Shown here piece by piece: positions 3,865 through 10,005 of a DNA stretch of 39,037 bases. The notes below the pieces were generated by a model, which was not told where the DNA came from, made no database searches, and saw only the letters and a program-made list of their open reading frames with translations. How positions within the stretch are numbered: position 1 is the stretch's first letter; each line of letters starts with the position of its first letter. The position numbers and the translations under genes are program-made. Source of the DNA: Escherichia phage pO2; the sequence record OR228483.1; one strand, given 5' to 3'.

Positions 3865-4022
3865 AAAACCTCCATTGTTAAACGGGTCGTCCTTGACCCA
3901 AAGTTGTTACCCTACGTTGGTTAGCGTGTAGTTAGCCTCTACCTCCACAACCTTCTAACATCTACACCCCACTCCTCACCCTATTCATGGATAACCACCT
4001 CAGCGAATCCATGCGTACATTT

Positions 4023-6053
4023 CTAGCGTCGGATGGCCTGTACCATCAAGTCACCAAGAAGAGTAACACTACCACCTGCACTTAAGTTCTTAATGTACAC
4101 ATTACATAAATTCTCCCCTATTGGCTTGAGAATAATTGAACATGACTTAACATCAAAGGTAGCACCATACACAAGCACATCCCCCTTAGTTGGCTTGTAG
4201 TCACCAGTGAGGGTAATATTACCGGCATTCAGGTCAGCACCTGGTTCAAGCGCAGTGTTAACTGCAAGAGTACCTTTGGCTACAACTCCGTTGTTGCTAC
4301 ACCATCCGACCGTGACTGTTGGAACAAAGACTGTGTTGTCATACTCAATCAAACTGTTACCTAGTGCAGCCAGTGACGCCCCACCCGTAGCACCAGTCCA
4401 CAACTTCAATCTAGTAGTTCCAAGCTTAACTCTAGCATCCCCAGAAGACAGGACTGGGTACATGAATACAGCAGTAGACGTCAGGTCTTCCCCGAAGAAG
4501 ATACCATCAACAGTAACGCGAGAACTTTCATGTGCTCGTAAGAAGTAAGCCTCCCCAGAACTAGCCAGAACTTTGTGGGAATGTAGTGCATATCCGTTAA
4601 GTGTTACTGTTGAGTCCCCATGAATATATATAGAGGCATGTCCATTATGATGAATCTCACAGTTCTCGCTGTACATGCCATTTATTACCATACCTTTACA
4701 GTTGTTAATATCAAAAGCCTGTAGACCTTGTATATCATTACAGCCGTCCATTGCACAATTGTTCATAGTCATGTTGTACACGTTTGCAAAATTGAACGCC
4801 TGATAACAATTAAGTGCGTAGCATGTATCCATTAGGACTGTAGTACCAATATGCTTACGGAAACCTTCCCAGCAATTAATCGCCAATACGTTACGCATGG
4901 TATACTGAAAAGCCCCTGTCACGTCATGAATACCAAAGTACGCACCACGTACTATGATGTTCTCAATGATAAATTGTGAAGGCCATGCTGTCTGCGATGC
5001 ATCACCAATATCAATACCTTTGCGACCACCATAGTTGTCTGGCTTGTTCTCACCATAATCAATGAATAAACCGCCTAAGTATCCACCCATGGAGTATCCA
5101 GAGTTAACGTCATACTTAAAAGCTGCTTCATTGTGAGAGATTGCTAGGATTGTACCAAGACTTGGTGATGGAGATATTCCCCCACCTTTAATAACTTGGT
5201 TCTTAAAGTACAAAGTCTCTTTAATGATGTATATACCAACGGGGATATATAGATTCTTTCCTGTTGCTAGTGCTGCCTTGAAAGCCTCTGTATCATCCGC
5301 AGAACCATCACCTTTAGCACCCCATCCGCGAACATCACCCTCATCTCGCCAGCGTGCCATCTGTAATTCTGGGTAGAGTATTGCCCCTTCCGGGTTTGAA
5401 ATCTGACTTCTTAAAGCAGCATCACCAACACTAACCCACGCACCTAATCCAATCCCACCGGAAGTTTCAGGAGTTGAACCAGCAGGAACGTTCTTTGGAA
5501 GCGTACCATCCCAGCGGTAATAATCACCATCCTCTTCCCATAGCAGGACCTCGCTCCATGTTGTAACGTTGTAGCCTTTCTCGAAGGAGCGACGGGTAAT
5601 ATAACCAATTAGACCAGCCTCCCTGATACTCTCAGCGATTCGTCGTGCTTCGTCCTCGCTATCCTTAGCGTTGCCAGCAGAGCTACCAGCAGCATCGGCA
5701 TATTCCTTCGCTAAGTCAACCGTTTGGTCTCTACCTTCTTCTGCAATATGGATAGCCTGAAGCTCTGAATTGGTCAGGTCACTAGCTGTCAACACTGAGC
5801 CATTCCTGAAGTCTACCACTAAGTCAGTTCCAGTCTGACGGTGAATACGAACGATGTCGAAACCTGATTGGTCAACCAACATCTCAATCATCGTTGGATT
5901 AAGGAATCGGTAATCTCGACCAACTTCCAGTACACGGTTCAGGGTAAGGTTAGAGCTATTCACCAGCGTAACAACAACAAACGTTCTGGCTAGGTAGTCG
6001 AACTCAATCCTGTACTGAGTGTTTCCTGAAGGGAATTGTGTAATCGTGGACAT
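4023..6053 (-). CDS. gp17: Tail fiber / tailspike: T7 gp17-like N-terminal adaptor domain fused to a parallel beta-helix (pectate-lyase-type) domain, probable polysaccharide depolymerase
   Basis: N-terminal ~120 aa resemble T7 gp17 (FDYLARTFVVVTL, DYRF); downstream GWGAKGDGSADDTEAFKAAL motif and repeated N/G/C-rich beta-helix-like segments; AAAGGAGG before ATG. Confidence 0.85.
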   Translation of the reverse strand: MSTITQFPSGNTQYRIEFDYLARTFVVVTLVNSSNLTLNRVLEVGRDYRFLNPTMIEMLVDQSGFDIVRIHRQTGTDLVVDFRNGSVLTASDLTNSELQAIHIAEEGRDQTVDLAKEYADAAGSSAGNAKDSEDEARRIAESIREAGLIGYITRRSFEKGYNVTTWSEVLLWEEDGDYYRWDGTLPKNVPAGSTPETSGGIGLGAWVSVGDAALRSQISNPEGAILYPELQMARWRDEGDVRGWGAKGDGSADDTEAFKAALATGKNLYIPVGIYIIKETLYFKNQVIKGGGISPSPSLGTILAISHNEAAFKYDVNSGYSMGGYLGGLFIDYGENKPDNYGGRKGIDIGDASQTAWPSQFIIENIIVRGAYFGIHDVTGAFQYTMRNVLAINCWEGFRKHIGTTVLMDTCYALNCYQAFNFANVYNMTMNNCAMDGCNDIQGLQAFDINNCKGMVINGMYSENCEIHHNGHASIYIHGDSTVTLNGYALHSHKVLASSGEAYFLRAHESSRVTVDGIFFGEDLTSTAVFMYPVLSSGDARVKLGTTRLKLWTGATGGASLAALGNSLIEYDNTVFVPTVTVGWCSNNGVVAKGTLAVNTALEPGADLNAGNITLTGDYKPTKGDVLVYGATFDVKSCSIILKPIGENLCNVYIKNLSAGGSVTLLGDLMVQAIRR

Positions 6054-6099: not shown

Positions 6100-6122
6100 G
6101 TTTCCTATAGTGATAGTTTAGT
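6100..6122 (-). promoter_or_regulatory. Phage RNA polymerase promoter (phi17-like)
   Basis: + strand CCTATAGTGATAGTTTAG; overlaps gp16 stop codon. Confidence 0.65.
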
Positions 6123-9100
6123 CCTTGATGTGGATACCTTGCTCCTCAAACATTCCAAGCAACAGCTTCTGGGTAATGGGGTCGTTCGGAACCAGTTCAC
6201 GGAACGTATTATACATCCCGGTCATGTAGTCACGCTCGTTGACACGAGTATCAGCCTTGAGGTAGCCAGCCAAGTTATAAGCAGAAACGCCAACGTTAGC
6301 AGCATATCCGAAAGCTGGAACCTGCTCCAAGAAGTTACCAACAACATTCATCACAGGGTCACTTGTAGCTGCACCAAACGTGATGGCACGTTCAGGCTTC
6401 TCTGTAGGCGAACGAGGTAGGATAGACGAACGGAGCATCTTAGTGTCCTCATACCCAGCGATGCCACCTAGAATGTTAGCTACCCCAAGTGGTCCACCCA
6501 GATGTGAACTACGGGACAGGGCCGCATAGGCAATCATCGTTGGGTCCAGAGCTTGCTTGAGATAATCTCGGTCTCGACCGTCCTGCATAGCGTAAGCCTT
6601 GACGTGCGCCTGAGCCATGTAGTAGATACCAGCCAGACCCATAGACATCACAGTAGACAGTGCAGCGTCCATCGCTCGGTTGTTCTTCGTGGCGTTATAG
6701 AATGTTCGCATGGTTCGACCATTGATGGACTTGATGACGAAGTTCTTAAACTGAAGGACAGTCTTAGCGAGAGGACCATAAGCCTTGGCGTCCATGTTGG
6801 ACAGCTTATGAGGACGGAGTAACGTTTCGTCAGCGATGGTATCACCCATACGCCATAGGTCCATAGCCCTTGGGTCCTGACTGAACGCCTTCTTATCCTT
6901 GATGGTGTACTTCCCGTCTGGACCACGAGTCACTGACTCACGGATGAGGGACTTAATGCCCTTCCACTGCTCGTCAGAGATACCAGCGGTCTTAAGCCAG
7001 CGGTCATCGAACTTACGCTTACTACCAGTCAGGCTATGCTCCACGATGTCAGACAGGAAGCCTTGACGTCCAGCATCTAACAGGTAGTTGGTCGTACCGT
7101 TGAGGACTTTAGTGAACGGAGAGCGTACTGCAAGTTCACCAGTGTAATACTTGACAGTTCCCAGAGCTGTAGCTGCCCCGCGACCTAGGTCACTGTAAGA
7201 CCGCAGACGGTCAATGACATCCTGTTTAGACGGACGGATTGAGTCATCCAGTTCCTTACCGAAGATAACATTGTGCAGGTCCTTAATCTCTGAGGCCCCA
7301 ACCTTCTTGTTACGGAAGGCTAGGTCACGGAAAATTGGGACTCCATGCAGCATTGCACGAACGTTGCCACGAGCCAGCATACCACCAATCTCCGTTAAGT
7401 TCTGAACACCCATGTAGGCATTCTTAGCGAAGAACGATAGGTCTGTCATTGTGCGCATCACGGTAGCGAAGGCTGCATCATCAGCACCATCACGTCGAGC
7501 ACGACCAGTGAGAATCTTCAGGGTGTCACGTAAGGTAGATACTTCACCTTTCAACTTACCGTCATCCCCAGCCTTGTTCATCATGGTCTCAACCAAGTCC
7601 TTCATGTCCTTCGTGGTCTTTCCTGTACCAGCCATGATAGCAATGTCACCATTGACTCGACGGTTGTAGGCCGGGACAATCTTGTCCATGTCCCACTCAC
7701 GCAGGTTGTTGACACTGAAGGTCTGACCGTTAGGTAGGACGATTGACATATCGCTATCGAACAGGTTACGAGCCTCAAGGAAGCTGTTGTTCTCCAGACC
7801 CACCAGACCATTGATGTTCTCTTCCATTACGGATGAACGCTCGAACTGCTCGGTGTGAGAGATACCATAAGCCTTATCGTTGGCGTACTTATCGACCGCA
7901 GCCGCAAGTCCTTCTGGAGTCAACGTAGGGTCAGCCTCTAAGAGTGCCTCGTCCACACGTTTCTTGACCTCAGGTCGAGACGCATAGCTGGTCAACCATG
8001 ACTTCTTGATGGCCTCCTGTAGTGCCTCTGGACTCCCAAGCTCCTTGATGTACAGCTCCTTCATCTGGTTGCTATACACATGCGGGACGTAGGTTCCCTT
8101 GAAGCGGCTACCCGGAAAGATAGACTGAGCGTCTGGACGACCAAACATCGCCGGGTTCTCCATCATCTCACGCTTGGCGTCAAACTGGTTCTTCAGCAGG
8201 TCATATACTTTCAGTTCTCCCGGAGTCAGTTCAGCCTTCAGGTTCCCACTTCCGTCTTCAATAGCCATAGACACACGCTGGTAGATGTCCTGACGGAATG
8301 CGCCAGAGTCTCGCCAGAATGCTGTCTGGAAGTATGGGTCCTTGAGCGCCTCAGTAACCGCGTCGTCGATGTCGTTGTAGAACCGATGGTCCACAGCACG
8401 AAGTCTCTCAAATACGTCTGACGCAGTGGTCCCGATTTTACCTGAGGCCCCTGACTGCATACCAGTTGGTGAACGCACTAAGTCAGCAGCGACTCCACGA
8501 ATCTCAGGGTTCTCTGACCGAAGCAGCTTCAGGCCAATCTCAGTAAGCCCACCAAGGTTCACACCAGCAGCGGCACGTTCAGGCTCAATCACTTCATCAA
8601 AGACTTGACGTGTCTTAGGGTTCAGAGGGTTCTCACCAATCAGGATTGAACCATCTTCCAGTCGTACACTACCCGGCTCGTTCGGAACGTCAGCGAACTT
8701 AACGCCTTGATGACTAAAGGTCTGCTCACCTTCCTGAATAGGGAGACGAGACAGGTCCTGACCATCAACGTTACGAGCGGTCTCACGAGCTTCCAGACGT
8801 GTAGCTGGGCCAGCAAACTCATTAGTGTTGCGACCTAAGGCTCTGCCTAACCCATCAGCGATAGCAGTCATACCACCACCGAAGAGAGCACCACCAAGGA
8901 TAGCTTCAGCCACATGAGCATCACCACCAGCCACTGAGGTACGGGCCATCTCGGACACACCAGCCAGTGCTCCAGATTGAGCAGCCACGGTGAACATCTT
9001 GTTGACCAGCTTACCGCCTTTACCAACCTGTCCAGCGATAGGAACGTATGTCAGAGGGTCTACACCAGCGCCAATCACACCAGCAGCTAACTGAGCACCA

Positions 9101-10005
9101 GTCCCAGCCTTGGCCTTCTCTTGGTCCAACTTCTGGTTCTCAAGCGCCAAGTTAATAAGCTCGGTCAGGTTCTGAGGGGAGCCACCAGTAATGACTCCGT
9201 AATACTGAGGCAGAACCCCAGCGTTACGAATCTGGTCAAGCTCTTCACGAGTCCACTTATGGTTGTTCCAGCGGGTCGGGTTGAACACATCGCCAATGAC
9301 ATCAAGTGAGTCCTCTGTCTGCCCAGCGCGGATAGCCACGCCGACCATAGAGTTCTTCACTTCAGCTTCTGTAGCAGCACCGAAACCGAACCACGTAGAG
9401 CGATCCTCTCGTTCCTGCATGGTCTCGCCAGTAGACTTATAGAACATCTCACCGAACGATTCGTTGGGAGCTTCAGGTGCTTGACCCTCAATGTTTAGAC
9501 CAGCAGCGGTAGGAAGGTTCTCGCCCAGAGCTACTTTAGGTTTAGCCTTGAGTCCTTCCGTGAGTGCGTCAAATACGTTAGCGCTTACTGGTGGAGTCTT
9601 TGGGCTAATGCCATTGAGTGCTCGTGCGACTCCCTTCTGATAGACTTCTGGATTGTACCGGGAGCCTGTCTCATGGAAGCTAATAGCTTGCGCCAGAGCA
9701 GACAGGGTGTCCGGGTTCGATAGGTCGAGACTCTGGGTAGCTGGAATACCAGTTGCAGCCACCACTGAGTCGATATAAGCCTTAGTGTCGTTCTCGTTAG
9801 GAGGTGCCCATCGGTTGATAATCTTCTCGATGGAGTCATAACCTCGGCGACCGTAGGACAGCAGGTTTTTACCTAAAGCTCGGACGCCAGACTCTGGACT
9901 ATCGAAGGTGACGAATGCACCATCATCTCCAGTCATTCCTTCCCATTGGTCCTTACTTACCCGGATGTTACCCGGATTGTTATTGCGAATACCACGAGTC
10001 GCCAT
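6118..10005 (-). CDS. gp16: Internal virion (ejection) protein D
   Basis: 1295 aa; central and C-terminal regions resemble T7 gp16 (RLEARETARN, SPTGMQSGASGK, NPAMFG); N-terminus differs from the T7 transglycosylase region; TAAGGAG before ATG. Confidence 0.9.
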   Translation of the reverse strand: MATRGIRNNNPGNIRVSKDQWEGMTGDDGAFVTFDSPESGVRALGKNLLSYGRRGYDSIEKIINRWAPPNENDTKAYIDSVVAATGIPATQSLDLSNPDTLSALAQAISFHETGSRYNPEVYQKGVARALNGISPKTPPVSANVFDALTEGLKAKPKVALGENLPTAAGLNIEGQAPEAPNESFGEMFYKSTGETMQEREDRSTWFGFGAATEAEVKNSMVGVAIRAGQTEDSLDVIGDVFNPTRWNNHKWTREELDQIRNAGVLPQYYGVITGGSPQNLTELINLALENQKLDQEKAKAGTGAQLAAGVIGAGVDPLTYVPIAGQVGKGGKLVNKMFTVAAQSGALAGVSEMARTSVAGGDAHVAEAILGGALFGGGMTAIADGLGRALGRNTNEFAGPATRLEARETARNVDGQDLSRLPIQEGEQTFSHQGVKFADVPNEPGSVRLEDGSILIGENPLNPKTRQVFDEVIEPERAAAGVNLGGLTEIGLKLLRSENPEIRGVAADLVRSPTGMQSGASGKIGTTASDVFERLRAVDHRFYNDIDDAVTEALKDPYFQTAFWRDSGAFRQDIYQRVSMAIEDGSGNLKAELTPGELKVYDLLKNQFDAKREMMENPAMFGRPDAQSIFPGSRFKGTYVPHVYSNQMKELYIKELGSPEALQEAIKKSWLTSYASRPEVKKRVDEALLEADPTLTPEGLAAAVDKYANDKAYGISHTEQFERSSVMEENINGLVGLENNSFLEARNLFDSDMSIVLPNGQTFSVNNLREWDMDKIVPAYNRRVNGDIAIMAGTGKTTKDMKDLVETMMNKAGDDGKLKGEVSTLRDTLKILTGRARRDGADDAAFATVMRTMTDLSFFAKNAYMGVQNLTEIGGMLARGNVRAMLHGVPIFRDLAFRNKKVGASEIKDLHNVIFGKELDDSIRPSKQDVIDRLRSYSDLGRGAATALGTVKYYTGELAVRSPFTKVLNGTTNYLLDAGRQGFLSDIVEHSLTGSKRKFDDRWLKTAGISDEQWKGIKSLIRESVTRGPDGKYTIKDKKAFSQDPRAMDLWRMGDTIADETLLRPHKLSNMDAKAYGPLAKTVLQFKNFVIKSINGRTMRTFYNATKNNRAMDAALSTVMSMGLAGIYYMAQAHVKAYAMQDGRDRDYLKQALDPTMIAYAALSRSSHLGGPLGVANILGGIAGYEDTKMLRSSILPRSPTEKPERAITFGAATSDPVMNVVGNFLEQVPAFGYAANVGVSAYNLAGYLKADTRVNERDYMTGMYNTFRELVPNDPITQKLLLGMFEEQGIHIKD

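What the first reader, a model, noticed from the sequence alone, without database searches (positions are those of the whole stretch)
4023..6053. Tail fiber replaced by a beta-helix depolymerase-type tailspike
Only the first ~120 residues resemble the T7 fiber; the rest carries the GAKGDGxxDDTxA signature and repeat pattern typical of pectate-lyase-fold enzymes. This suggests the phage recognises and degrades a capsule or other surface polysaccharide, which would define host range.
Basis: partly seen in the sequence, partly recalled or inferred. Interest (0 to 1): 0.5.

Follow-up and report, generated by a model that had tools for sequence, protein, structure and literature searches.

The report
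Swapped beta-helix tailspike, probably O2/O1-antigen-specific
The gene encodes an ordinary kind of phage receptor-binding protein: a T7-type tail anchor fused to an interchangeable sugar-degrading "beta-helix" spike. Host-range data for close relatives point to the O2 (and probably O1) O-antigen of E. coli as its target, rather than a capsule.

Summary

- **Missed module:** aa 121-262 (linker plus Tail_spike_N domain) is also conserved across K1F-like phages.
- **Motif not diagnostic here:** the GAKGDG motif is also present in K1F's beta-propeller endosialidase. It marks the module-swap junction.
- **Origin:** the window is Escherichia phage pO2, a Kayfunavirus. The gene is ~99% identical to those of Vec13 and UFJF_EcSW4.
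- **Swapped cassette:** window ~3969-5287 has the lowest GC in the genome. A 38-51-nt vestige of an endosialidase-type gene end follows it.
- **Likely target:** an 81%-identical module sits beside the endosialidase in Mt1B1_P10, T145_P2 and AL505_P3. Mt1B1_P10 uses the K1 capsule or the O-antigen as alternative receptors. T145_P2 lyses K1-negative O2 strains 4/7 and O1 strains 3/4, against 1/155 others.

The best reading is an O2/O1 O-antigen endoglycosidase tailspike. It is a new member of a known kind, of modest interest, and its enzymatic activity is untested.

The parts
4023..6053 (-). Tailspike gene (gp17 position), 676 aa including stop 4023-4025
   Evidence: ORF list. 100% identical to a protein of Escherichia phage pO2. 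99% identical to Vec13 gp48. Lies between gp16 and the holin gene, as in T7-like phages.
5694..6053 (-). aa 1-120: T7 gp17-like N-terminal tail-attachment domain
   Evidence: PF03906 at aa 10-115. Matches solved T7 gp17 N-terminus, 7boz/8dsp, at aa 6-116. Identical to aa 1-250 of solved tail spike 9vvr_A.
5604..5693 (-). aa 121-150: Ala/Ser/Glu-rich linker
   Evidence: Conserved with K1F gp17. Only a spurious LEA_4 hit.
5364..5603 (-). aa 151-230: Tail_spike_N domain (TSP1/Gp66-type), part of the conserved Kayfunavirus N-terminal module
   Evidence: PF18668, 69.2 bits, aa 156-211. Matches CBA120 TSP1/3/4 and other solved spikes at aa 149-228.
5268..5363 (-). aa 231-262: junction linker with the GAKGDGSADDTEA signature (5283-5321). 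Nucleotide homology to K1F ends at window 5288.
   Evidence: K1F gp17 aligns through aa 262 with the same motif. blastn break at gene nt 766. The linker YPELQMARWRDEGDVRGWGAKGDGS is shared exactly with P0004 from an N4-like contig.
4293..5336 (-). aa 240-587: right-handed parallel beta-helix (predicted catalytic / receptor-binding body)
4665..4925 (-). Candidate active-site residues: D377 (4923-4925), K400 (4854-4856), D436 (4746-4748), E463 (4665-4667)
   Evidence: D377, K400 and E463 are invariant in 20/20 family members down to 24% identity. D436 is D in 19/20 and E in one. Each lies at the C-terminal end of a strand in successive coils of the model. The catalytic role is inferred.
4026..4292 (-). 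aa 588-676: C-terminal all-beta domain (no Pfam family). Likely trimer-stabilising or sugar-binding.
   Evidence: Strands E371-455 of the model. 87-88% identical to P0004, although the helix is only 36-63% identical. 86% nt identity to L003.
3969..5287 (-). Horizontally exchanged cassette at the DNA level (gene nt 767 to ~55 nt past the stop)
   Evidence: Homology to K1F is 97% up to window 5288 and resumes at window 3968. GC is 0.428 against a genome mean of 0.501. This is the lowest 1265-nt stretch of the window.
3964..4014 (-). Non-coding vestige of the 3' end of an endosialidase-type (K1F-like) tailspike gene
   Evidence: 35/38 nt identical to K1F gene 17 codons 1022-1034. The next ~125 nt are deleted at a GGGGT microhomology. 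The same stretch lies inside tailspike/endosialidase CDSs in >40 phage records. It is post-stop only here, in Vec13 and in UFJF_EcSW4.

Best explanation
The gene encodes the phage's single receptor-binding protein, a modular tailspike expected to be a trimer.

Residues 1-~230 form the anchor: a T7 gp17-type tail-attachment domain, a linker and a Tail_spike_N domain. This part is shared at ~94-97% identity with K1F-like Kayfunaviruses and fixes six spikes to the tail. That much is shown by homology to solved structures.

From the conserved GWGAKGDG junction onward, the protein is a horizontally acquired cassette. It consists of a right-handed beta-helix (aa ~240-587) plus a small C-terminal beta domain. 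The fold is shown by prediction.

The cassette most likely binds the LPS O-antigen of E. coli serogroup O2, and probably also the related rhamnose-rich O1. It probably cleaves it as an endoglycosidase (hydrolase), using conserved carboxylates D377/D436/E463 on one face of the helix. This would let the virion work down through the O-antigen layer to the outer membrane. All of this is inferred.

The cassette replaced an endosialidase-type spike in an ancestor. It also circulates on other adaptors in Vectrevirus (K1-5-like) and N4-like phages.
For: **Architecture**
- Pfam PF03906, PF18668 and PF12708 all pass their cut-offs.
- PDB sequence matches support the anchor: 9vvr_A is identical over aa 1-250, T7 gp17 matches aa 6-116, and CBA120 tailspikes match aa 149-228.

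**Fold**
- AlphaFold2 gives pLDDT 80.2 and pTM 0.73.

**Swap**
- The K1F identity break falls at gene nt 766, and homology resumes 55 nt after the stop.
- The cassette has the lowest GC in the window.
- A vestige of an endosialidase-type gene end follows the stop codon.
- The same module sits on other adaptors.

**Target**
- The 81%-identical module lies directly upstream of the endosialidase in Mt1B1_P10, T145_P2 and AL505_P3.
- Mt1B1_P10 needs loss of both the K1 capsule (emrR) and the O-antigen ligase for full resistance. Resistance mutations in wzy and neuB also arose (PMC12361893).
- Isolation hosts are O2:H6 K1 (Mt1B1, T145), O1:H7 K1 (AL505) and O1:K1:H7 (ATCC 11775, the UFJF_EcSW4 host). 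The window's own phage is named pO2.
- In 187 Picard-collection strains, T145_P2 lyses K1-negative O2 strains 4/7, K1-negative O1 strains 3/4 and all other K1-negative strains 1/155. Fisher p = 6e-6 and 2e-5.
- None of the K5 strains that are not O2 is lysed, whereas both O2:K5 strains are.

**Hydrolase rather than lyase**
- The O2 repeat unit is Rha3-GlcNAc-Fuc3NAc. It is neutral and has no uronic acid (PMC8969423; PMC7685785).
- D377 and E463 are invariant and D436 is near-invariant across the family.
Against: - No experiment on this protein exists. The specificity is transferred from an 81%-identical homologue, whose residues 491-540 are only 66% identical.
- Which of Mt1B1_P10's two spikes uses the O-antigen is my inference. 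The paper does not state it.
- All known isolation hosts are also K1-positive. UFJF_EcSW4 has only this spike, so it must somehow pass the K1 capsule of ATCC 11775.
- Three O2:H1 K7 (ST73) strains and one O1 strain are not lysed by T145_P2 or AL505_P3.
- One O1 'K1-negative' positive (IAI35) carries an ambiguous capsule label, '1'.
- Counts were extracted by hand from 187 of 403 strains. The endosialidase-only control phage column was cut from the stored file.
- In-silico typing cannot separate O2 from O50.
- The host serotypes of pO2 and Vec13 are not recorded.
Confidence: 0.6

Rival explanations
1. Capsule or exopolysaccharide depolymerase: the spike degrades a K-antigen capsule or colanic acid rather than the O-antigen.
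For: - Many structural neighbours are capsule depolymerases or lyases: Klebsiella K1, K2 and K21, Acinetobacter K types, K5 lyase and Phi92 colanidase.
- Most Kayfunavirus gp17 variants that have been characterised are capsule-directed, for example the K1F endosialidase.
- All known hosts are encapsulated with K1.
Against: - T145_P2 lyses O2 strains with a K5 capsule or no ABC capsule, but none of about 13 non-O2 K5 strains.
- Mt1B1_P10's second receptor depends on the O-antigen ligase and wzy.
- lon mutants overproducing colanic acid became partially resistant, not more sensitive.
- In the Vectreviruses, K1 is already covered by the separate endosialidase.
Confidence: 0.1
2. The beta-helix is a binding-only or modifying spike. 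It recognises the O-antigen without cleaving the backbone: reversible binding, or side-group removal.
For: - No match to any catalytic signature of a defined CAZy family. GH28 motifs are absent.
- Sequence hits to solved enzymes cover only the N-cap.
- No halo or enzymology data are available for pO2, Vec13 or UFJF_EcSW4.
Against: - D377, K400 and E463 are strictly conserved and D436 nearly so, in relatives down to 24% identity. That pattern is typical of an active site rather than a variable binding surface.
- Nearly all O-antigen-directed beta-helix spikes that have been solved are endoglycosidases, for example Sf6, HK620 and CBA120 TSP2. This rests on established knowledge; they appear as structural hits.
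Confidence: 0.15
3. The spike is polysaccharide-specific, but for a target other than O2/O1. The 19% divergence from the Vectrevirus module would have changed the specificity, and the name 'pO2' would be uninformative.
For: - Identity to P0002 drops to 66% in aa 491-540.
- The module is mosaic, with the helix and the flanks having different histories.
- Host serotypes of pO2 and Vec13 are not on record.
Against: - UFJF_EcSW4, which has a 99%-identical spike, was isolated on an O1:K1:H7 strain.
- The helix core, aa 245-490, is 82-91% identical to P0002.
- The phage name agrees with the inferred serogroup.
Confidence: 0.12
4. A novel-fold K1 (polysialic acid) depolymerase: the beta-helix itself attacks the K1 capsule that all known hosts share.
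For: - Every known isolation host is K1-positive.
- The cassette sits where K1F has its endosialidase.
Against: - The Vectreviruses carry it together with a canonical endosialidase, so it would be redundant.
- K1-negative O2 strains are lysed.
- Several K1 non-O2 strains are not lysed.
- Mt1B1_P10 still infects the capsule-deficient emrR mutant through the O-antigen.
Confidence: 0.03

Closest known systems
Escherichia phage K1F gp17 (endosialidase tailspike)
   Same: Same genus, gene position and N-terminal module. Aa 1-262 are 94% identical, including the GWGAKGDG motif. A vestige of its 3' end lies after the window gene.
   Different: K1F continues as a beta-propeller endosialidase with a C-terminal chaperone (1064 aa). 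The window protein continues as a beta-helix plus a small beta domain (676 aa). It has no Peptidase_S74 domain and no endosialidase Pfam hits.
Second tailspike of Vectrevirus Mt1B1_P10 / T145_P2 / AL505_P3 (QNR52596.1, P0002; the slot of K1-5 gp46)
   Same: Catalytic module 81% identical over aa ~240-676. The hosts are O2 or O1. It is the most likely O-antigen-directed spike of a phage shown to use the O-antigen as an alternative receptor.
   Different: Only 479 aa, with a short unrelated N-terminus. It presumably docks via an adaptor, as K1-5 spikes do. It is paired with an endosialidase. Both genes are annotated only as hypothetical proteins.
O-antigen endoglycosidase tailspikes of P22-like and related phages (Sf6, HK620) and CBA120 TSP2
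   Different: Only 11-17% sequence identity, with different particle-attachment domains. Substrate and cleaved bond are unknown here. No shared catalytic motif was demonstrated.
T7 gp17 tail fibre
   Same: Homologous N-terminal tail-attachment domain, aa 6-116. Same gene position.
   Different: T7 continues as a coiled-coil shaft with a small tip domain and has no enzymatic beta-helix. Nothing beyond aa ~120 is related.
[not shown]
   Different: 16% identity. These enzymes act on uronic-acid polymers, which the inferred substrate lacks. They are neither phage proteins nor trimeric spikes.

Membership tests
Phage_T7_tail (PF03906), gp17-type tail-attachment domain | Profile match above the curated cut-off at the N-terminus, and homology to solved T7 gp17 residues ~1-150 | tested here: met
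   57.6 bits against 25.2, aa 10-115. 7boz/8dsp match aa 6-116 at E ~1e-16.
Tail_spike_N (PF18668, TSP1/Gp66 N-terminal domain) | Profile match above the curated cut-off | tested here: met
   69.2 bits against 25, aa 156-211. Matches solved CBA120 TSP1/3/4.
Pectate-lyase-like right-handed beta-helix superfamily | GAKGDG-type N-cap domain (PF12708) above the cut-off | tested here: met
   32.7 bits against 27. A profile of 6 homologues hits GH55, phi29 gp12, Sf6, phiAB6 and AlgE N-caps.
Pectate-lyase-like right-handed beta-helix superfamily | Three-dimensional fold: a stack of parallel beta coils | tested here: met
   [not shown]
Phage tailspike depolymerases (functional class) | Homotrimer displayed on the virion | not testable with these tools
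   The monomer alone was modelled. The identical N-terminal 250 aa occur in a solved entry with 18 chains (9vvr), which is consistent with 6 trimers.
Phage tailspike depolymerases (functional class) | Cleaves a host surface polysaccharide (halo formation, oligosaccharide release) | not testable with these tools
   No enzymology or halo data were found for pO2, Vec13 or UFJF_EcSW4. Inferred from fold and conserved carboxylates.
O-antigen-specific tailspikes (O2/O1) | Infection depends on, and tracks, the O serogroup | tested here: inconclusive
   Tested only for the 81%-identical homologue. Mt1B1_P10 uses the O-antigen as an alternative receptor. T145_P2 lyses K1-negative O2 strains 4/7 and O1 strains 3/4, against 1/155 others. 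There are no data for the window phage itself apart from its name, pO2.
Endosialidase tailspikes (K1F gp17 / GH58) | Beta-propeller catalytic domain (PF12217) and C-terminal Peptidase_S74 chaperone | tested here: not met
   No such Pfam hits. Identity to K1F ends at aa 262. Only a non-coding 38-51-nt vestige of the chaperone-coding region remains.
Glycoside hydrolase family 28 (the name given by NCBI to distant relatives) | Conserved NTD / (G/Q)DD / G(H/S)G / RIK catalytic motifs | tested here: not met
   None of the four motifs is present. The 'GH28-related' names reflect PF12708 only.
Polysaccharide lyases with beta-helix fold | Uronic-acid-containing substrate for beta-elimination | tested here: not met
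   The inferred substrate, the O2 unit Rha3-GlcNAc-Fuc3NAc, has no uronic acid. This holds only if the O2 assignment is right.

The most novel reading that the evidence does not exclude
The cassette is the first recognised representative of an uncharacterised, rare family of O2/O1 O-antigen endoglycosidases, possibly endorhamnosidases. It would move as a unit between Kayfunavirus, Vectrevirus and N4-like phages by recombination at a conserved linker (…YPELQMARWRDEGDVRGWGAKGDG…) and a conserved C-terminal domain. It would supply the so-far unassigned second receptor specificity of Mt1B1_P10-type dual-spike phages. It would be a ready-made module for retargeting phages or enzymes to the ExPEC/APEC serogroups O1 and O2.
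Probability: 0.45. Interest if true: 0.45.

Novelty: new member of a known kind. Interest (0 to 1): 0.3.

Why it matters
O1 and O2 are major serogroups of extraintestinal and avian pathogenic E. coli, and both are vaccine targets. If this rare cassette is an O2/O1-specific tailspike, three things follow. First, it would explain the host range of pO2, Vec13 and UFJF_EcSW4. Second, it would explain the O-antigen-dependent second entry route of the gut-model phage Mt1B1_P10. Third, it would give a portable module for engineering phage host range or for enzymatic O-typing. As biology it is not surprising: exchange of tailspike modules on a conserved T7-type anchor is textbook for this group.

Tried and rejected
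- **PDB sequence searches.** The catalytic part, searched as a single sequence and as a 6-sequence profile, hit only the ~50-residue N-cap. It found no characterised close relative.
- **Pfam Beta_helix.** Below threshold.
- **GH28 motifs.** Absent.
- **Repeat claim.** Hydropathy autocorrelation gave no clear period.
- **Paper searches.** Searches for 'phage pO2', 9VVR and phiHAO/phiYIO found nothing. The UFJF_EcSW4 paper (PMC11646959) is not held. 'Tailspike' plus 'O2 antigen' found nothing relevant.
- **vECPPW10 paper.** It concerns a different phage and only cites UFJF_EcSW4.
- **Model coordinates.** Not exposed to Python, so the geometry of D377/D436/E463 could not be measured.
- **IMG/VR scan.** Found no close full-length relative, only N-cap matches or 23-29% identity.
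- **Novel K1 depolymerase.** Considered and rejected. The module co-occurs with a canonical endosialidase, and K1-negative O2 strains are lysed.
- **K5 as the receptor of the lysed ECOR-49 and ECOR-50.** Considered and rejected. About 13 other K5 strains are not lysed.
- **Not done.** I did not read parts 1, 4 and 5 of the interaction matrix. I did not use the second structure-prediction job, because the N-terminal 250 aa are already solved in 9vvr.
Full report
**The observation**

The window holds a 676-codon ORF at exactly 4023-6053 on the minus strand. It has an ATG start and an AAGGAGG ribosome-binding site 5 nt upstream. It lies between the gp16-type internal virion protein gene (6118-10005) and the genes for holin, small terminase, spanin and large terminase. 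This is the gene-17 position of a T7-like genome read in reverse.

The protein is 100% identical to a protein of 'Escherichia phage pO2' on a 39,037-bp contig, the same length as the window. It is ~99% identical to the tail protein of Escherichia phage Vec13 (genus Kayfunavirus) and of UFJF_EcSW4.

- Pfam PF03906 (T7 tail fibre N-terminus) covers aa 10-115, and solved T7 gp17 chains align to aa 6-116.
- GAKGDGSADDTEA occurs once, at aa 245-257. About 4e-7 occurrences would be expected by chance.

The conserved N-terminal module is not ~120 residues but ~250-260. A linker (aa 121-150) and a Tail_spike_N domain (PF18668, aa 151-230) follow the T7-like domain. The whole of aa 1-250 is identical to the solved chain 9vvr_A, an 843-aa tail spike present as 18 chains in the entry.

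Of 162 phage records that match the gene at the nucleotide level, 159 match only nt 1-766 or less. Among them is K1F gene 17, the classical endosialidase.

K1F gp17 aligns through aa 262 and carries the same GWGAKGDGvtDDTaA motif. Its catalytic part, however, is annotated as a beta-propeller endosialidase. In this lineage, therefore, the motif marks the junction at which catalytic modules are exchanged. On its own it is not evidence for a beta-helix.

**The fold**

I modelled aa 220-676 with AlphaFold2 on an alignment of the six full-length homologues available. The result had mean pLDDT 80.2 and pTM 0.73.

- Every top Foldseek hit in the PDB is a right-handed parallel beta-helix protein. They include the Sf6 tailspike, phi29 gp12, AlgE4, the Klebsiella K2-2 tailspike, RbmB and Phi92 colanidase, at E 5e-7 to 1e-5.
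- In the viral structure library the only close matches are Vec13 ('Probable tail spike protein') and Mt1B1_P10 ('…pectate lyase domain-containing protein').

The beta-helix spans about aa 240-587, and a separate all-beta domain occupies aa 588-676. The 'repeat pattern' is a recurring hydrophobic-x-N/D-C/G rung motif, found 8 times between aa 391 and 517 at irregular spacing. No GH28 catalytic motifs are present.

**Evidence that the catalytic part is an exchanged cassette**

- Against K1F, nucleotide identity is 97% down to window 5288 (gene nt 766). It then vanishes and resumes at 96% from window 3968, 55 nt beyond the stop codon.
- The intervening stretch has GC 0.428 against a genome mean of 0.501. 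It is the lowest-GC 1265-nt window in the whole sequence.
- Twenty-two nucleotides after the stop codon lies a 38-nt segment, extending to 51 nt against some relatives. It matches codons 1022-1034 of K1F gene 17 at 35/38 positions. The next ~125 nt of K1F are missing, with the join at a GGGGT microhomology.
- That same segment lies inside tailspike or endosialidase coding sequences in more than 40 phage records. It is non-coding only here, in Vec13 and in UFJF_EcSW4.

I read this segment as a scar. The beta-helix cassette replaced the body of an endosialidase-type tailspike gene that had a K1F-like C-terminal region. So within this lineage a spike replaced a spike, rather than a spike replacing a T7-type fibre.

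**Distribution of the cassette**

The module is rare.
- A search of 5.8 billion protein clusters found only five other full-length relatives, at 81-53% identity.
- An exhaustive HMMER search of 1.84 billion representatives found 38 at E <= 1e-30, about nine of them covering the full length.
- A scan of 2.9 million IMG/VR contigs found no close relative.

The module also occurs on different adaptors:
- **P0002 (479 aa, 81% identity).** It has a short N-terminus and sits directly upstream of an 811-aa endosialidase in ~45-kb Vectrevirus genomes: Mt1B1_P10, T145_P2 and a 44,662-bp record matching AL505_P3 in length. From my own knowledge, this is the layout of phage K1-5, where that slot holds the K5 lyase.
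- **P0003 and P0004 (620-630 aa).** They carry a different N-terminus plus a Tail_spike_N domain. P0004 lies in a 71-kb contig next to another PF12708 protein.

The module is itself mosaic. P0004 is 88% identical to the window protein in the linker (aa 220-244) and 87-88% identical in the C-terminal domain, but only 36-63% identical in the helix.

**What it probably recognises**

There are no experimental data for this protein, so I used its 81%-identical relative.

[quoted passage not shown] Resistance mutations in wzy and neuB also arose. The phage has exactly two spike genes, the endosialidase and the beta-helix protein. By elimination, the beta-helix protein is the O-antigen-directed one. 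This step is my inference and is not stated in the paper.

Supplementary tables of bioRxiv 10.1101/2023.11.22.567924 give the host serotypes. Mt1B1 and T145 are O2:H6 K1, and AL505 is O1:H7 K1. ATCC 11775, the host of UFJF_EcSW4, is O1:K1:H7. The window's own phage is called pO2.

I then extracted the T145_P2 and AL505_P3 columns of that paper's interaction matrix for the 187 strains with metadata that I had read. Among K1-negative strains:

| Phage | O2 strains lysed | O1 strains lysed | All other strains lysed | Fisher p (O2; O1) |
|---|---|---|---|---|
| T145_P2 | 4/7 | 3/4 | 1/155 | 6e-6; 2e-5 |
| AL505_P3 | 4/7 | 3/4 | 8/155 (all weak) | 6e-4; 1e-3 |

The lysed O2 strains have a K5 capsule (ECOR-49, ECOR-50) or no ABC capsule (IAI38, and M863 weakly). 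None of about 13 non-O2 K5 strains is lysed. The three non-lysed O2 strains are all ST73 O2:H1 K7.

The most economical reading is that the module targets the O2 antigen and cross-reacts with O1. Both O units contain several L-rhamnose residues (PMC7685785).

**Likely mechanism**

The O2 repeat unit has the composition Rha3-GlcNAc-Fuc3NAc (828.34 Da). It is neutral and lacks uronic acid (PMC8969423). If O2 is the substrate, beta-elimination is excluded and a glycoside hydrolase mechanism is expected.

Across 20 family members down to 24% identity, D377, K400 and E463 are invariant, and D436, Y412 and Y503 are conserved in 19/20. In the model, D377, K400, D436 and E463 each lie at the C-terminal end of a strand in successive coils. 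This fits a catalytic groove along one face of the helix.

The proposed sequence of events is:
1. Six trimeric spikes are anchored by the T7-type domain.
2. The spikes bind O2/O1 O-antigen chains.
3. They cleave the chains endolytically.
4. The virion is thereby brought to the outer membrane.

Step 1 rests on homology to solved structures. The rest is inferred.

**Caveats**

- The specificity is transferred across 19% sequence divergence, and aa 491-540 is only 66% identical.
- All known isolation hosts are also K1-positive. It is unexplained how the single-spike UFJF_EcSW4 passes the K1 capsule of ATCC 11775. From my own knowledge, phase-variable K1 expression is a possibility.
- The counts were taken by hand from under half of the strain panel.
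- The endosialidase-only control column was cut from the stored file.
- In-silico typing cannot separate O2 from O50.
- One O1 positive (IAI35) has an ambiguous capsule label.

**Comparison with known systems, and verdict**

This is the standard modular architecture of Autographiviridae receptor-binding proteins: a conserved gp17-type anchor with exchangeable enzymatic C-termini. It passes the membership tests for PF03906, PF18668 and the pectate-lyase-like beta-helix superfamily. It fails those for endosialidases, GH28 and, conditionally, lyases.

The sequence is already public. Elsewhere it is automatically annotated as a probable tail spike with a pectate-lyase-like domain. The finding is therefore correct but ordinary in kind.

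Three modest additions come from this analysis: the assignment of the rare cassette to the O2/O1 O-antigen, the scar showing replacement of an endosialidase-type gene, and the identification of the likely O-antigen spike of Mt1B1_P10-type phages.

Noticed in passing
window 3964-4014 (minus strand), just downstream of the stop codon at 4023-4025: A non-coding vestige of the 3' end of a K1F-type endosialidase/tailspike gene. It matches K1F gene 17 codons 1022-1034 at 35/38 nt, followed by a ~125-nt deletion joined at a GGGGT microhomology. In the window one codon has become TAG, where Vec13 and K1F have GAG.
   Followed up: yes
window ~4023-5287: The exchanged cassette is the lowest-GC stretch of the whole 39-kb window: 0.428 against a mean of 0.501, with the minimum 1265-nt window at nt 4051.
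   Followed up: yes
L003 3324-7863 (Logan contig SRR31239417_1751, 71 kb, N4-like size): Two adjacent PF12708 beta-helix proteins (875 aa and 620 aa) follow an SU10_adaptor-like gene. The 620-aa protein is P0004. It shares a near-identical linker and C-terminal domain with the window protein but has a divergent helix. This looks like a dual-spike phage with a mosaic relative of this cassette.
   Followed up: partly
OZ035767.1 24636-25484 and related Veterinaerplatzvirus T145P1 records (not fetched as loci): Siphoviruses isolated on the O2:H6 K1 strain T145 carry a ~30%-identical relative of the beta-helix, covering 62% of it. In the published matrix they lyse the ST141 O2:H6 K1 strains IAI51 and IAI74 strongly. 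Whether they share the O2 specificity is unknown.
   Followed up: no
PV615262.1 (search hits H25 and H63): A record named 'Acinetobacter phage vB_Aba_01KA', with host given as A. baumannii, has a K1F-type gp17 N-terminus (96% nt identity) and the endosialidase-type 3' end. It is nearly the same length as Escherichia phage vB_Eco_1RS (PV615263). The host label looks doubtful.
   Followed up: no
search hits (162 records): The same gp17 N-terminal module (nt 1-766, 90-97% identity) is found in 39 'Salmonella' phage records, many of them isolated on S. Typhi, and in several Enterobacter and Klebsiella phage records. One anchor thus serves spikes for several host genera.
   Followed up: no
window 6118-10005 (minus strand): The gp16-type internal virion protein (1295 aa) starts with a domain that Vec13 and K1F annotate as 'endolysin domain'. 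I did not examine it.
   Followed up: no
published interaction matrix, strains ECOR-57, IAI54 and IAI72 (O2:H1 K7, ST73): These O2 strains resist T145_P2 and AL505_P3, although other K1-negative O2 strains are lysed. Masking by the K7 capsule, an O2/O50-type difference or strain defences could explain it. It remains unresolved.
   Followed up: no
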